A DNA stretch of 64,000 nucleotides. Origin: Eledone cirrhosa (Eukaryota). The position numbers and the translations under genes are program-made. A model generated the notes under the pieces. That model was given only the letters and a program-made list of their open reading frames with translations. It made no database searches and was not told the DNA's origin. This document shows positions 293 to 18,052 of the stretch, piece after piece (the stretch's first letter is position 1; each line of letters begins with the position of its first letter). The stretch is taken from assembly GCA_964016885.1 (NCBI GenBank), contig OZ024740.1, positions 30,690,001-30,754,000 on the forward strand, written 5' to 3'.

Positions 293-900
293 TATATATA
301 TATATATATATATATATATATATATATATATATATATATATATATATATATATATATATATATATATTAATATATATATGTAAACAAGAACTAAGGGTTT
401 GTGAGCTGTATCACGCTTGGAAAACCCGGCGGTAGTTTATCGTGTCGGTAAAGGGATTGTCTGGTTCTGGACGGTATGTGTAAGACATTTTTAGACGTAC
501 AGACGCGCACATACATGTATATATATATATACATACCCCAAACTCAGGAGCACGCGCACGCATATAAGTGTGTACACACTCACACATAGATCACACATAT
601 ATATAAACCCACCCACTTTCATATATACACATGTACATTATATATATATATATATATATATATATATATATATATATATATATAAATATATAGTTAGAGA
701 AGCAAAAATTGTCTGGGTTTTCTCTTTTATACTTTATACTCCAAGATTGAATGGAATTCTTACAAACTTGTGGAGTTACCCATAACCGTACGTTCAAACC
801 ATCCATAAAACTGGCTTCGTTCAAACCATCCATAAAACTTTGCTTCGCTAACTACAGGCTCCTTATCGGTCGAGCAACCACCTAAACATACGGTACTGCT

Positions 901-3257
901 ATGGAAAAGTACTACATAGGTATGTCCCTAAAGAACATTCCTATACCTCGGAGAAAGGATTATACCCTCGGGATGATACAGCGAACAAACGACTTTATAC
1001 GCAGGGTTAGATGGAAAACTTTCCATTTCGACAAAGGACGTAATGGTCGCACCGTGGAATACAACAAGGAAACATACGGCTTCAAATCGTGTAAGAACCC
1101 ACCTACCAACCCTCAACTGGATACCTTTGAACAGGACTTACTGAAGATTATTATGAATATCAAATTCAAAAAGCGGAGGAATAATAAACTCCAGAATGAC
1201 ATAAATACATTCCTAAAAAACTGCGAACAAACCAATGGAATTATTGTCTTAGCGGACAAAACATCAAATGTGTATACGATGGATGTTAATACATAAAATA
1301 GCTTCATACGGAAGGAATTACATAGGAAATACAAAAACACTAATGAGGCGGCACTGATAAACATCAACAACGAGGCACACAATATATTCAAACACCTAGA
1401 AATAGACGACAGAACGGAGCCACTTAGGCCATGTACCCCCACATTTAACCTCAAGGACCACAAGGTAAATTTTGATTATAACCCCACAATTAGACTTATA
1501 TGCCCGTCCAAATCGGACATCGGGAAAATTATAAACATATATTAGACAGAGTGATAGCACAAATGAAGAATAAACTAGTGATTAAACTATGGGGTAACGC
1601 TACCGAAACAATTAAGTGGTTTAACAATATAGCTAACAAAGAAGTATCCAAATTTATACAATTTGACATTAACGATTATTACTCATCTATATCCCCCAAC
1701 ACCTTGGATAAAGCCTTAGCATTCGCCAAAGCCAATTCTGATATAACAGACAACGAGATAAAAATCATATTAGCTGCTAGGAAAACAATAAATAAATTTG
1801 AAAACGCCTATTGGGAACGTAAGGATAGATTAAATAACTTTGGCATCACGATGGGGGCTAACGACTCGGCTCAAGTCACAGATTTAGTAGGTATTTACAT
1901 AGCCCATAGTTTACAAAGTTAGTTTAGCGACCTTCACGGTGGAATCTACAGAGACGACGCCCTTCTCCTAGTTAAGAACCTAAATAACCAGAGCATAGAA
2001 AGACTCCGTAAGAATATTAGAAAGACTCTCGGGAAACTAGGCCTTAGCATAACGTATGAGTATAGCACTAAAACAGTTAACTTTCTAGACGCAACGCTTA
2101 ACCTAAATACGGGACTTATAAGACCTTTTCACAAGATTAATGAAAACTTAGCATACATCAACTGTAACTCAAACCACCCACTATCCATAATTAAATCCAT
2201 TCCACGCAGCATATCCCTTAGGATCTCCCGCCTCTCGTCTAACCGACAAATCTTCGAAAAACATGCAGAATACTACAATACCGCATTAGACAAGGCAGGC
2301 CACTTAGATAGAGTAGAATATATAGATGAAAGCCTCCGTGAAGCGCACACGAACACGCATAACACAAACTCCGGTAACACACGCACACACGCACTTACGC
2401 ATAGAACTGCGAAGTATACGGCAAATAGAAATACAACATCGAAATCAAACAAGTCACGCAGTAGAAAATATATTTGGTATAACCCCATATTTAACACCTC
2501 TATTAGTACTAACCTACCCTCTACCTTCTTTAGAATAATAAATAAGCACTTTCCAGATTCACATAGATACAGCAAAATCCTTAACACTAAATCTATTAGA
2601 CTATCTTATTCCACGGCACCAAATATAGAGGCACACATTAAAATGTTTAACGCTAAAAAGATACATAACAACACCAGAACACAAATTTACAACAAAAACA
2701 ATACAATCACCACCGAACACAACAGAATATCTAATACACAACCACCCGCTAATAGACAAACAAAATGTAACACACTTGTACAGGCATCGCAGCCCACCAA
2801 TAATGCCAAAGTTGCCCATGACAAGAATTGTAACTGCCACCTACCTGAAACCTGTCCATTACATAATGAATGTATGCAGTCTAACCTGGTTTACCAATGC
2901 ACAGTGGAATCAGACAACCAGAAATGGTATTACATCGGAGCGACTGGGAATAGATTTAAAGCCCGTTGGTATACACACCGTTACGCATTGAAACATTCCC
3001 AGCATCGTTATGTAACTACCCTTGCAAACAAGACCTGGCAACTGAGAGAAAGTAACCATCAATGCACCCTGAAGTGGAAAAAATTATCGAACGCGCCCCC
3101 ATATCGGAGTGGTATGAGCAGCTGTCGATGATGCGACCTTGAGCTGTTCCACATCTTGAGTTCGAAGAATAAGTTACTCAACAATAAAATCGAAAGATCA
3201 ATTTATTGTAACCATAGACTCAAAGAGAAGTTTTCGCACTACAAATCGAACCCTTAA
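901..3257 (+). pseudogene. Penelope-like element A, full-length RT + GIY-YIG ORF, disrupted (stops at 1294, 1920, 3129; frameshift near 1530)
   Basis: ADKT, FIQFDINDYYSSI, ITMGA, GGIYRDD (~1938-1958), VNFLD, SNHP, WYNP, CNCHLPETCPL linker, LVY...YIG, RFKARWYTH, LLN. Confidence 0.93.
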
Positions 3258-3600
3258 CCTCTTACTACCAACTGACAAACTGCATATACTTAGACTTTAT
3301 ACCCTCTTGTTGTATCTAAACCCTTTTAATTACCCACTAAACCAATACATATATCCCCCTCTCCTCCCTCATTCCTCTTCTATTTCTTCGTTTTCTTCCT
3401 TCCTTCCCTCCCCTTCTTGGCTATCTTTTCTTTTCTTCTTTCTCACCCCCTTCTTTGCTTTTATTTTTGTCATTATTATCTTTATCTTTATTTTTTATAT
3501 ATATATATATATATATATATATATATATATATATATATATAAAATATTAAACAAATAATGAATAAACAATGAGACAGTTCCTTATATTAAACAAAAAAAG

Positions 3601-3754
3601 TTCATTATTTAACGATCGTTTCTAGGATATATATGTGTTAGAATTGGCATGCATATTCAACAGATCTATGTACAAAATTATACAAAATTATACAAACTAT
3701 CAAGATTAAATATACATACCAACACATATATACGCCGTCTTCAGAAATAATGAA
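3601..3754 (-). ncRNA. Mirror copy of the long-stem-II hammerhead
   Basis: Reverse complement of 14872-15025. Confidence 0.75.
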
Positions 3755-15380: not shown

Positions 15381-17737
15381 TTAAGGGTTCGATTTGTAGT
15401 GCGAAAACTTCTCTTTGAGTCTATGGTTACAATAAATTGATCTTTCGATTTTATTGTTGAGTAACTTATTCTTCGAACTCAAGATGTGGAACAGCTCAAG
15501 GTCGCATCATCGACAGCTGCTCATACCACTCCGATATGGGGGCGCGTTCGATAATTTTTTCCACTTCAGGGTGCATTGATGGTTACTTTCTCTCAGTTGC
15601 CAGGTCTTGTTTGCAAGGGTAGTTACATAACGATGCTGGGAATGTTTCAATGCGTAACGGTGTGTATACCAACGGGCTTTAAATCTATTCCCAGTCGCTC
15701 CGATGTAATACCATTTCTGGTTGTCTGATTCCACTGTGCATTGGTAAACCAGGTTAGACTGCATACATTCATTATGTAATGGACAGGTTTCAGGTAGGTG
15801 GCAGTTACAATTCTTGTCATGGGCAACTTTGGCATTATTGGTGGGCTGCGATGCCTGTACAAGTGTGTTACATTTTGTTTGTCTATTAGCGGGTGGTTGT
15901 GTATTAGATATTCTGTTGTGTTCGGTGGTGATTGTATTGTTTTTGTTGTAAATTTGTGTTCTGGTGTTGTTATGTATCTTTTTAGCGTTAAACATTTTAA
16001 TGTGTGCCTCTATATTTGGTGCCGTGGAATAAGATAGTCTAATAGATTTAGTGTTAAGGATTTTGCTGTATCTATGTGAATCTGGAAAGTGCTTATTTAT
16101 TATTCTAAAGAAGGTAGAGGGTAGGTTAGTACTAATAGAGGTGTTAAATATGGGGTTATACCAAATATATTTTCTACTGCGTGACTTGTTTGATTTCGAT
16201 GTTGTATTTCTATTTGCCGTATACTTCGCAGTTCTATGCGTAAGTGCGTGTGTGCGTGTGTTACCGGAGTTTGTGTTATGCGTGTTCGTGTGCGCTTCAC
16301 GGAGGCTTTCATCTATATATTCTACTCTATCTAAGTGGCCTGCCTTGTCTAATGCGGTATTGTAGTATTCTGCATGTTTTTCGAAGATTTGTCGGTTAGA
16401 CGAGAGGCGGGAGATCCTAAGGGATATGCTGCGTGGAATGGATTTAATTATGGATAGTGGGTGGTTTGAGTTACAGTTGATGTATGCTAAGTTTTCATTA
16501 ATCTTGTGAAAAGGTCTTATAAGTCCCGTATTTAGGTTAAGCGTTGCGTCTAGAAAGTTAACTGTTTTAGTGCTATACTCATACGTTATGCTAAGGCCTA
16601 GTTTCCCGAGAGTCTTTCTAATATTCTTACGGAGTCTTTCTATGCTCTGGTTATTTAGGTTCTTAACTAGGAGAAGGGCGTCGTCTCTGTAGATTCCACC
16701 GTGAAGGTCGCTAAACTAACTTTGTAAACTATGGGCTATGTAAATACCTACTAAATCTGTGACTTGAGCCGAGTCGTTAGCCCCCATCGTGATGCCAAAG
16801 TTATTTAATCTATCCTTACGTTCCCAATAGGCGTTTTCAAATTTATTTATTGTTTTCCTAGCAGCTAATATGATTTTTATCTCGTTGTCTGTTATGTCAG
16901 AATTGGCTTTGGCGAATGCTAAGGCTTTATCCAAGGTGTTGGGGGATATAGATGAGTAATAATCGTTAATGTCAAATTGTATAAATTTGGATACTTCTTT
17001 GTTAGCTATATTGTTAAACCACTTAATTGTTTCGGTAGCGTTACCCCATAGTTTAATCACTAGTTTATTCTTCATTTGTGCTATCACTCTGTCTAATATA
17101 TGTTTATAATTTTCCCGATGTCCGATTTGGACGGGCATATAAGTCTAATTGTGGGGTTATAATCAAAATTTACCTTGTGGTCCTTGAGGTTAAATGTGGG
17201 GGTACATGGCCTAAGTGGCTCCGTTCTGTCGTCTATTTCTAGGTGTTTGAATATATTGTGTGCCTCGTTGTTGATGTTTATCAGTGCCGCCTCATTAGTG
17301 TTTTTGTATTTCCTATGTAATTCCTTCCGTATGAAGCTATTTTATGTATTAACATCCATCGTATACACATTTGATGTTTTGTCCGCTAAGACAATAATTC
17401 CATTGGTTTGTTCGCAGTTTTTTAGGAATGTATTTATGTCATTCTGGAGTTTATTATTCCTCCGCTTTTTGAATTTGATATTCATAATAATCTTCAGTAA
17501 GTCCTGTTCAAAGGTATCCAGTTGAGGGTTGGTAGGTGGGTTCTTACACGATTTGAAGCCGTATGTTTCCTTGTTGTATTCCACGGTGCGACCATTACGT
17601 CCTTTGTCGAAATGGAAAGTTTTCCATCTAACCCTGCATATAAAGTCGTTTGTTCGCTGTATCATCCCGAGGGTATAATCCTTTCTCCGAGGTATAGGAA
17701 TGTTCTTTAGGGACATACCTATGTAGTACTTTTCCAT
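15381..17737 (-). pseudogene. Penelope-like element A, mirror copy with the same disabling lesions
   Basis: Reverse complement of 901-3257; identical ORF fragments except R>C at 1000/17638. Confidence 0.93.
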
Positions 17738-17759
17738 AGCAGTACCGTATGTTTAGGTG

Positions 17760-18052
17760 GTTTGTATAATTTTGTATAATTTTGTACATAGATCTGTTGA
17801 ATATGCATGCCAATTCTAACACATATATATCCTAGAAACGATCGTTAAATAATGAACTTTTTTTGTTTAATATAAGGAACTGTCTCATTGTTTATTCATT
17901 ATTTGTTTAATATTTTATCTTGACTCTGTATACCGTTTATCTTTCACCGAAAGTGATTTTTCATTACATCTCTTCTTTCCATGATATCCGGAATACATTG
18001 AGTTCTTCATACGGATTGGACACTACCGTAAACTCTTGGTAGATTTATCTAC
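17760..18052 (+). mobile_element. Partial pLTR of PLE B family (3' half of hammerhead plus downstream sequence) capping the palindrome
   Basis: 17760-17917 is a direct repeat of ~14930-15088; the continuation 17918-18052 is homologous to 26400-26541 (TGACTCTG ... ACATTGAGTTCTTCA). Confidence 0.75.

What the first reader, a model, noticed from the sequence alone, without database searches (positions are those of the whole stretch)
876..18052. 17-kb palindrome apparently made by a Penelope-like element: cDNA fold-back that also duplicated 2.7 kb of flanking DNA
Seen: arms 876-9371 and 9507-17762. The 135-nt spacer is the continuation of the B RT (contains YRDD), and the turn uses a 4-nt microhomology (TTTA 9368-9371 / TAAA 9507-9510). 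The B ORF is open in both arms, while neighbouring element A is duplicated with all its stops/frameshift, so A was already dead when copied. The far end is capped by a B-family pLTR piece (17760-18052) ending in (TA)n. Known: PLE insertions often show 5' truncation with inverted segments, usually much shorter. Inference: reverse transcription primed in the (TA)n at ~3540 ran ~6 kb, snapped back, copied itself and continued through the insertion site into flanking DNA (A), then joined a second cDNA primed from the other target strand. That would be a retroelement-driven route to large inverted duplications of host DNA.
Basis: partly seen in the sequence, partly recalled or inferred. Interest (0 to 1): 0.85.

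Follow-up and report, generated by a model that had tools for sequence, protein, structure and literature searches.

The report
Retroelement fold-back duplicated neighbouring DNA
A 17-kb near-perfect DNA palindrome sits exactly where the two halves of a Penelope-like jumping-gene insertion meet, and it likely formed during insertion, when the new DNA copy folded back and recopied itself plus 2.7 kb of an already dead neighbouring element; its junctions are not yet confirmed by reads.

Summary
The palindrome is there as described: arms 876-9371 and 9507-17762, a 135-nt spacer continuing the reverse transcriptase (RT) region of element B, a 4-nt overlap at the turn and 3 nt at the outer junction. 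The arms differ by 3 substitutions (2 CpG transitions), about ten microsatellite or homopolymer lengths and a 271-nt ribozyme-like insert in the left arm only. A, B and sister C carry Hydra-clade Penelope-like (PLE) motifs. The cap (17760-18052) is B's 3' tail, identical to the arms over 159 nt, plus a family-typical extension ending at (TA)n. DNA beyond the cap looks like A's own 3' end, so B inserted into A's 3' UTR. The 8.3-kb inverted copy thus lies between B's truncated main copy and its inverted cap. Best reading (0.58): fold-back of the RT-extended end during insertion. Which polymerase did the copying is unknown. Rivals: a later break at that junction (0.22), an assembly artefact (0.12). 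Short PLE palindromes and L1-linked inverted duplications are published, so this is a new variant, not a new class. The duplicated DNA is another dead PLE, not a host gene.

The parts
692..3495 (+). Element A, old dead Hydra-type PLE: 5' leader, ORF 901-3257 with 3 stops and a frameshift near 1533, first part of 3' UTR. Only 876 onward is duplicated.
   Evidence: about 3% of positions differ from relatives in public contigs (112 places in 3408 nt, run X3)
3496..3541 (.). (TA)23, left half of the target site; B's 3' end abuts it
3542..9506 (-). Element B main copy, cut inside the RT at 9506; ORF part 8048-9506; 4.5-kb 3' UTR with a 2.1-kb TA/CA array (4674-6811)
   Evidence: 3' end aligns with C's 3' end
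4403..4673 (-). 271-nt insert D in a (TA)n tract, left arm only; holds a type I hammerhead-like motif (4511-4576); likely a later insertion
   Evidence: Rfam Hammerhead_HH9 E 0.28, below gathering score; fold z -1.05
9372..9506 (-). Single-copy spacer (fold-back loop): B RT with YRDD and a +1 frameshift in an A-run; no stable structure of its own
   Evidence: DNA fold z -0.18
9368..9510 (.). Junction J1: 4-nt inverted overlap, 9368-9371 with 9507-9510
9507..15088 (+). Inverted copy of B (9371 down to 3542), without insert D
14873..15025 (+). Hammerhead-like core with a very long stem II near B's 3' end (mirror copy at about 3600-3750, minus strand)
   Evidence: RNA fold z -6.0; motif scan; no Rfam hit here
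15089..15142 (.). Inverted copy of the target (TA)n
15143..17762 (-). Inverted copy of A (3495 down to 876), 99.92% identical, same lesions
17760..17918 (+). Cap, part 1: last 159 nt of B's tail, identical to the arms; junction J2 (3-nt overlap GTT) at 17760-17762
17919..18052 (+). Cap, part 2: about 134-nt extension beyond the tail, homologous to the extension in C's inverted cap
   Evidence: alignment score 60 vs shuffle maximum 48, 0 of 2000 shuffles reach it; loose ends at 18027 run on to (TA)n in 10 and 15 contigs
18053..18098 (.). (TA)23, right half of the target site
18099..18556 (+). Inferred remainder of A's 3' UTR and its 3' end
   Evidence: terminal GAAAC-N4-GTA motif 54 nt before (TA)n; 25-nt match to A's head, E 1.6e-4; 5 single-contig joints to A's ORF
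22032..26543 (-). Sister element C, an internal comparison: truncated main copy, then a 190-nt inverted piece of the element's 5' end (26198-26390), then 18 nt of tail plus extension at (TA)n

Best explanation
An 8.3-kb inverted copy lies between the truncated main copy and the inverted cap of a Hydra-type Penelope-like insertion in a (TA)n tract, and it likely formed during that insertion, when the new DNA end folded back on a 4-base match and was probably extended back through the insertion site into 2.7 kb of the neighbouring dead element before likely joining the cap on a 3-base match. Steps: (1) inferred: both strands were cut in the (TA)n inside A's 3' UTR; (2) inferred from the two outward-facing 3' ends: both ends primed on B RNA, the left at the tail end (about 6 kb copied), the right 134 nt further on (293 nt kept); (3) shown as sequence, inferred as event: the left end paired with itself, leaving the 135-nt loop; (4) shown: the copy runs through tail, (TA)n and A to 876; unknown: whether the RT, a host polymerase or a replication fork made it; (5) shown as sequence: joined to the cap. 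Later drift likely added 3 substitutions, repeat-length changes and insert D.
For: Main copy and cap both end in (TA)n facing outward, as in sister C and as published for PLEs (PMC8557442 passages; PMC3846280 section 6). A purified PLE protein cuts and extends both strands and starts at two RNA sites that bound the tail (PMC11167929, parts 1-2 of 4). Cap and arms are identical over 159 nt, which bounds their divergence below about 1.9%; P = 5e-5 if B were as old as A. All three carry C at 17884, where the laid contigs have T in 97-100% of summed depth in 4 of 4 runs. C also has an inverted piece at the same junction. Two of 15 listed joints change strand inside the A-family ORF; one, with a 404-nt offset and 4-nt overlap, is in both runs of one sample. 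L1 precedent: inverted duplications with 2-bp hairpin homology, and one inversion holding both L1 and genomic DNA. Against simple sequencing error: 2 of 3 substitutions are CpG transitions (post hoc P about 4e-4, n = 3) and D is in one arm only.
Against: One locus in one assembly; no genome was held. None of the 32 pieces listed (of 7,503) bridges J2: two stop at 17762 and run off the stretch, and loose ends at 17760-17761 show ordinary B sequence. Those runs hold at most 0.52 of the words, so they are probably other individuals or species. The age bounds leave room for a later event (arms 0.04%, cap below 1.9%). A short spacer with 2-8 bp of overlap is also the signature of generic fold-back (PMC3907307 passages). 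A rare variant shared by cap and arms could be a source-element variant or a later homogenisation. If D was lost from the right arm rather than gained by the left, the duplication may post-date B. Unwinding 8.3 kb from its template is far longer than the 5-34 bp fold-back inserts in yeast (PMC11724301 abstract). None of the 80 related loci shows a long palindrome, but their median length is 2.6 kb.
Confidence: 0.58

Rival explanations
1. Two steps. B first inserted normally (main copy plus inverted copy or cap). A later break at or near that head-to-head junction, perhaps caused by the inverted repeat itself, left a hairpin end that replicated into a palindrome, broke at 876 and was joined to the trimmed right end. 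The element supplies the fragile site, host repair does the rest.
For: A spacer with short overlap is the generic fold-back signature. Replication/fusion of one broken end makes fold-back junctions (PMC12807874 passages). The age bounds allow a gap between insertion and duplication. TA-bounded elements with inversion junctions are dense in this window, so a chance overlap is not negligible.
Against: Needs a second rare event while B was young (0/159 cap differences), with both new junctions bracketing B's internal junction and the flank restored. Human fold-back spacers were 766-70,466 bp in 21 of 21 sequenced junctions, and those rearrangements were terminal; this one has 135 nt and is interstitial.
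Confidence: 0.22
2. Assembly or library artefact: fold-back or amplification chimeras, or two haplotypes joined in inverted order, so that the arm differences are allelic.
For: Inverted chimeras with short overlaps are a known amplification artefact (recalled, no call). Heterozygous sites would also be rich in CpG transitions, and D could be an insertion polymorphism.
Against: Needs two chimeric junctions, the second landing in a correctly oriented cap that restores the right flank. Chimeras of one molecule would not differ by a 271-nt insert. 0.04% divergence would be low for two haplotypes (judgement, not measured).
Confidence: 0.12
3. Same insertion event, other route: the short right-hand cDNA jumped to the left flank at 876 and copied A and B up to 9371 before annealing to the first cDNA; or the exposed end primed on a read-through RNA starting near 876.
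For: Gives the same sequence. 876 lies 25 nt upstream of A's ATG. Template jumps and self-priming on antisense read-through RNA are proposed for PLEs.
Against: More jumps are needed, and both strands must stop within 135 nt of each other. A-family contigs continue past 876, and nothing seen marks it as a boundary.
Confidence: 0.08

Closest known systems
Hydra-clade Penelope-like elements (PMC8557442: abstract, passages, section 11, supplement passages)
   Same: RT before GIY-YIG, RWK, DKT, CxCx5C, CxxC and CxH motifs, (TA)n targets, 5'-truncated copy with an inverted copy at its 5' side, tail at one end only.
   Different: B's 3' UTR is 4.5 kb (Hydra families are mostly under 3 kb in all); the extension is about 134 nt, not 30-40; the parts read describe no duplication of target DNA.
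Self-primed palindromes at Penelope inversion junctions in Adineta vaga (PMC3846280: passages, section 6)
   Same: Head-to-head inverted structure with a palindrome at the junction, read as self-priming; capture of non-element DNA.
   Different: The palindromes whose sizes I read are 18-38 bp; here the arms are 8.3 kb and run past the 3' end into the DNA beside the insertion site.
L1 insertions with inversion or inverted duplication at remodelled break ends (10.1101/2024.12.14.628481: passages, section 9)
   Same: A retrotransposition break end self-anneals on a few bases, primes synthesis and is then joined to the other end; one inversion holds both L1 and genomic DNA (3,275 bp).
   Different: Somatic human cells and L1. 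The two inverted duplications shown are on the reciprocal end; here the duplication would be on the RT-extended end, in an assembled genome, with drift between the arms.
Generic fold-back inverted duplication and breakage-replication/fusion (PMC3907307 and PMC12807874, passages)
   Same: Single-copy spacer, short inverted overlap.
   Different: Usually larger spacers and terminal loss or translocation; not tied to an element's cap.

Membership tests
Hydra-clade PLE (elements A, B, C) | Single ORF with RT core before a C-terminal GIY-YIG nuclease | tested here: met
   YRDD, then the linker, then YIG in A; same order in B and C. Pfam gave no RT or GIY-YIG hit on A or B themselves; only weak RVT_1 (1 of 34) and GIY-YIG (2 of 34) hits among aligned relatives; Atlas neighbours carry both at low share.
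Hydra-clade PLE (elements A, B, C) | RWK motif and DKG changed to DKT | tested here: met
   A has RVRWK and DKT; C has DKT; region missing from truncated B. Among long relatives of B: RWK 15 of 19, DK[TS] 19 of 19.
Hydra-clade PLE (elements A, B, C) | CxCx5C linker; CxxC and CxH in the nuclease | tested here: met
   A and B, C; 63 of 75 relatives have CxCx5C.
Hydra-clade PLE (elements A, B, C) | CCHH motif absent | not tested
   No alignment to CCHH-bearing PLE nucleases was made.
Hydra-clade PLE (elements A, B, C) | Insertion into (TA)n | tested here: met
   Both ends of B and of C, and both inferred ends of A, abut (TA)n.
Hydra-clade PLE (elements A, B, C) | Canonical hammerhead ribozyme | tested here: inconclusive
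   B has the core letters and a perfect 10-bp stem I but an atypical long stem II, and the predicted fold is one long hairpin; no Rfam hit there. The 3' half motif is at all four Hydra-like 3' ends.
Hydra-clade PLE (elements A, B, C) | Placement in the Hydra RT clade on a tree | not tested
   Compared only by eye with Hydra-1_Obim and Hydra-1_Amil as printed from the supplement.
PLE insertion with inverted pLTR and one-sided tail | Inverted 3' piece at the 5' side of the truncated copy, with the extension at one end only | tested here: met
   Cap = tail plus extension, main copy stops at the tail; same in C; similar order in related locus L026.
Inverted duplication at a retrotransposition break end (L1 type) | Short inverted overlap at the fold and end-joining at the far junction | tested here: met
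   4 nt at J1 (2.5% by chance) and 3 nt at J2.
Inverted duplication at a retrotransposition break end (L1 type) | Insertion and duplication arose in one event | not testable with these tools
   Needs alleles or de novo insertions; the age bounds are compatible but loose.
Generic fold-back inverted duplication (human germline type) | Kilobase spacer and terminal deletion, translocation or ring | tested here: not met
   Spacer 135 nt vs 766-70,466 bp; the right flank appears restored.

The most novel reading that the evidence does not exclude
Hydra-type PLEs regularly make multi-kilobase inverted duplications of the DNA beside their insertion site: the RT-extended end snaps back, is copied past the element's 3' end and is rescued by the second cDNA. 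In genomes packed with these elements this would be a steady germline source of large palindromes and segmental duplications, centred in PLE ORFs and closed by a pLTR cap.
Probability: 0.22. Interest if true: 0.78.

Novelty: new variant of a known kind. Interest (0 to 1): 0.5.

Why it matters
How PLEs resolve the second end of an insertion, and why they leave inverted caps and palindromes, is unsettled (PMC8557442 and PMC11167929 say so in the parts read). This locus would be a frozen intermediate: two primed ends 134 nt apart on the RNA, a snap-back, and run-through into target DNA. It gives a countable signature for any long-read genome rich in PLEs: a palindrome centred in a PLE ORF, one arm passing the 3' end, closed by tail plus extension. 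If common, it links PLE activity to inverted duplications and fragile palindromes in animal germlines, extending what is reported for L1 in somatic cells. As it stands it is one unconfirmed locus and duplicates only dead element DNA.

Tried and rejected
1. My first reading, that 17919-18052 is B's own 5' end in minus orientation (B full length, rearranged later), was dropped: in C the same sequence follows the tail and precedes the 5' UTR and ATG in sense, and family contigs end at the same (TA)n boundary.
2. Naiad clade: rejected on domain order. The in-frame TGA in A's CxxC sits at a position that is Leu in 96% of relatives, so it is not read as selenocysteine.
3. Conserved-column test of B's youth against A: uninformative, 7 vs 6 departures over the shared columns.
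4. Summed contig depth along the stretch falls toward A's 5' end, rises toward 18550 and is high on the cap, but the tool says such depth cannot rank parts, so it is not counted as evidence.
5. J2 as an exact 33-nt pattern in metagenome contigs: 0 matches, as expected for an animal locus.
6. Related loci: 80 kept of 307 confirmed; 13 of 80 have an inverted match of 30 nt or more, none long; too short to test the claim. Viral contigs: none.
7. Solved-structure searches: no meaningful hit.
8. Bacterial promoter scan around 876: none found, and not suited to this organism.
9. Rfam: only microsatellite-driven miRNA matches below gathering scores, plus the weak hammerhead in D.
10. Earlier findings of the scan: nothing in three look-ups.
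11. 10.64898/2026.07.22.740005 (passages) gave background on retrozymes only.
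Full report
1. Observation. The window is AT-rich DNA crowded with (TA)n tracts; no genome was held for it. The arms are 876-9371 and 9507-17762. Outside microsatellites they differ by 3 substitutions in about 7,000 nt (0.04%), two of them CpG transitions. 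There are about ten length differences, all in (TA)n or homopolymer runs. A 271-nt insert, D (4403-4673), is in the left arm only; it carries a hammerhead-like motif and has distant relatives elsewhere in the window. The 135-nt spacer continues B's RT, with YRDD out of frame by +1 in an A-run where sister C is also shifted. The overlaps are 4 nt at the turn (2.5% by chance) and 3 nt at the outer junction.

2. The elements. A, B and C show the motifs given for Hydra-clade PLEs in PMC8557442 section 11: RWK, DKT, CxCx5C, CxxC, CxH, a C-terminal nuclease and (TA)n targets. B has 75 relatives at E 1e-20 or better, mostly 30-43% identical; the one with a species name is from Argonauta hians. Pfam does not recognise A or B directly, and no tree was built, so membership rests on motifs and on comparison by eye with sequences printed from the supplement.

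3. The cap. 17760-17918 equals B's tail at 159 of 159 positions. The next 134 nt align with the right end of C (score 60; 0 of 2000 shuffles reach it). I first took this for B's 5' end. C shows otherwise: on the plus strand it reads end of extension, 5' UTR, ATG and an ORF start like A's, and separately 18 nt of tail, extension, (TA)n. So the extension follows the tail in sense. In both B and C the main copy stops at the tail while the inverted cap includes the extension. Related locus L026 shows a similar order. In public contigs, loose ends at 18027 run on to (TA)n in 10 and 15 contigs of two runs of one sample. This is the published PLE pattern of an inverted piece with a one-sided tail, matching two RT start sites and cutting of both strands in vitro (PMC11167929, parts 1-2 of 4).

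4. The target site. 18099-18556 ends like the other Hydra-type 3' ends in the window, with GAAAC-N4-GT[AT] 53-73 nt before (TA)n. Of 25 looser motif matches, 7 lie within 110 nt of a (TA)n start, against about 10% of positions. Its last 25 nt match A's head. Five of the 15 listed joints link A's ORF to 18237-18492; each is one contig in one run with short sides (28-30 letters), so this is weak. Together these suggest that B inserted into a (TA)n inside A's 3' UTR and that no flank is missing. A differs from relatives at about 3% of positions, and relatives lack its frameshift, while the two A copies are 99.92% identical: A was long dead when copied.

5. Mechanism. Removing the 8.3-kb inverted copy leaves an ordinary Hydra-type insertion: truncated main copy joined to an inverted cap. 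The extra copy starts at the main copy's truncation point and ends at the cap's. Cap and arms are identical and share a variant rare in the laid runs. C also has a rearranged piece at this junction. One A-family contig, in both runs of one sample, changes strand within the ORF with a 404-nt offset and 4-nt overlap. Eight small palindromes occur elsewhere in the window, several in TA-bounded repeats; none was seen to extend into flank. I therefore favour fold-back of the RT-extended end during insertion (0.58). The copying enzyme is unknown. A later break at the junction (0.22), an artefact (0.12) and other routes within the same event (0.08) remain.

6. Results against, or missing. The four runs are at most 3 samples in 2 studies and share at most 0.52 of the words. 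The age bounds are loose. The test of B's youth by conserved residues failed to separate A from B. Related loci were too short to test generality. D's direction of change is inferred, not shown.

7. What is known. Self-priming at PLE inversion junctions is proposed in PMC3846280 (passages), where the sizes I read are 18-38 bp. L1 breaks give inversions and inverted duplications by self-annealing (10.1101/2024.12.14.628481, passages and section 9). Generic fold-backs have a spacer and 2-8 bp of overlap (PMC3907307, passages); replication/fusion gives the same junction (PMC12807874, passages); yeast fold-back inserts are mostly 5-34 bp (PMC11724301, abstract). I found no report of a PLE duplicating kilobases of its target in ten searches of an open-access library; subscription papers, likely including older Penelope work, were not covered.

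8. Verdict. It is a new variant of known behaviour: a large PLE-linked fold-back that reaches into target DNA, resting on one locus. Interest 0.5; about 0.78 if a genome-wide count shows it is recurrent.

Noticed in passing
window 14873-15025 (+), mirror about 3600-3750 (-); C about 22080-22225 (-): Hammerhead-like core at B's 3' end with a perfect 10-bp stem I and a stem II of about 115 nt, folding at z -6; the aligned region in C is degenerate. Would be missed by standard descriptors; activity untested.
   Followed up: partly
window 9400-9420 and about 25340-25360: B and C both have a frameshift in the same A-rich run just after YRDD: a slippage hotspot, a sequencing error or a recoding site; not resolved.
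   Followed up: partly
window 26198-26390: Sister C has a 190-nt inverted piece of the element's 5' end (leader, ATG, about 19 codons) between its truncated main copy and its cap.
   Followed up: partly
window 171-290, 21286-21522, 23400-23452, 27230-27300, 33215-33252, 33496-33585, 39866-39970, 43815-43908: Eight small palindromes, several with centres of 0-2 nt and several inside TA-bounded repeats; possible miniature snap-backs.
   Followed up: partly
window 41906-42787: Tandem 420-nt units between (TA)n tracts, each with a hammerhead-like motif read by eye; retrozyme-like.
   Followed up: no
window 42824-43564: Head-to-head inverted element with both ends at (TA)n and a GAAACCGGTA motif 14-20 nt from each end; relatives at 20040-20534 and 27054-27300.
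   Followed up: partly
window 40321-41670 (+): A fourth Hydra-like coding piece with a compact hammerhead-like motif 60 nt before its (TA)n end.
   Followed up: partly
window 91-229 and copies near 18580, 19341, 21129, 21755, 26748, 39910: Short non-coding repeat of about 140 nt, usually at (TA)n, sometimes with an inverted partial copy; at least seven copies.
   Followed up: no
window 56150-64000: At least 7.8 kb of strand-biased G/T-rich satellite built on GGTGT-like units, 77-78% matches; runs off the window.
   Followed up: no
window 28734-29684 and 52466-55443: GC-richer ORFs with Pfam RVT_1 and zf-RVT matches; likely LINE-type elements. 30193-30887 is repeated at 47232-47922 at 91%.
   Followed up: no
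L026 703-1000; L016 790-974 and 2821-3005; L046 1220-1572: Hydra-like loci from metagenome contigs with an inverted cap at (TA)n before a hammerhead and the ATG (L026), a 185-nt inverted terminal copy (L016), and an inverted copy after the 3' (TA)n (L046).
   Followed up: partly
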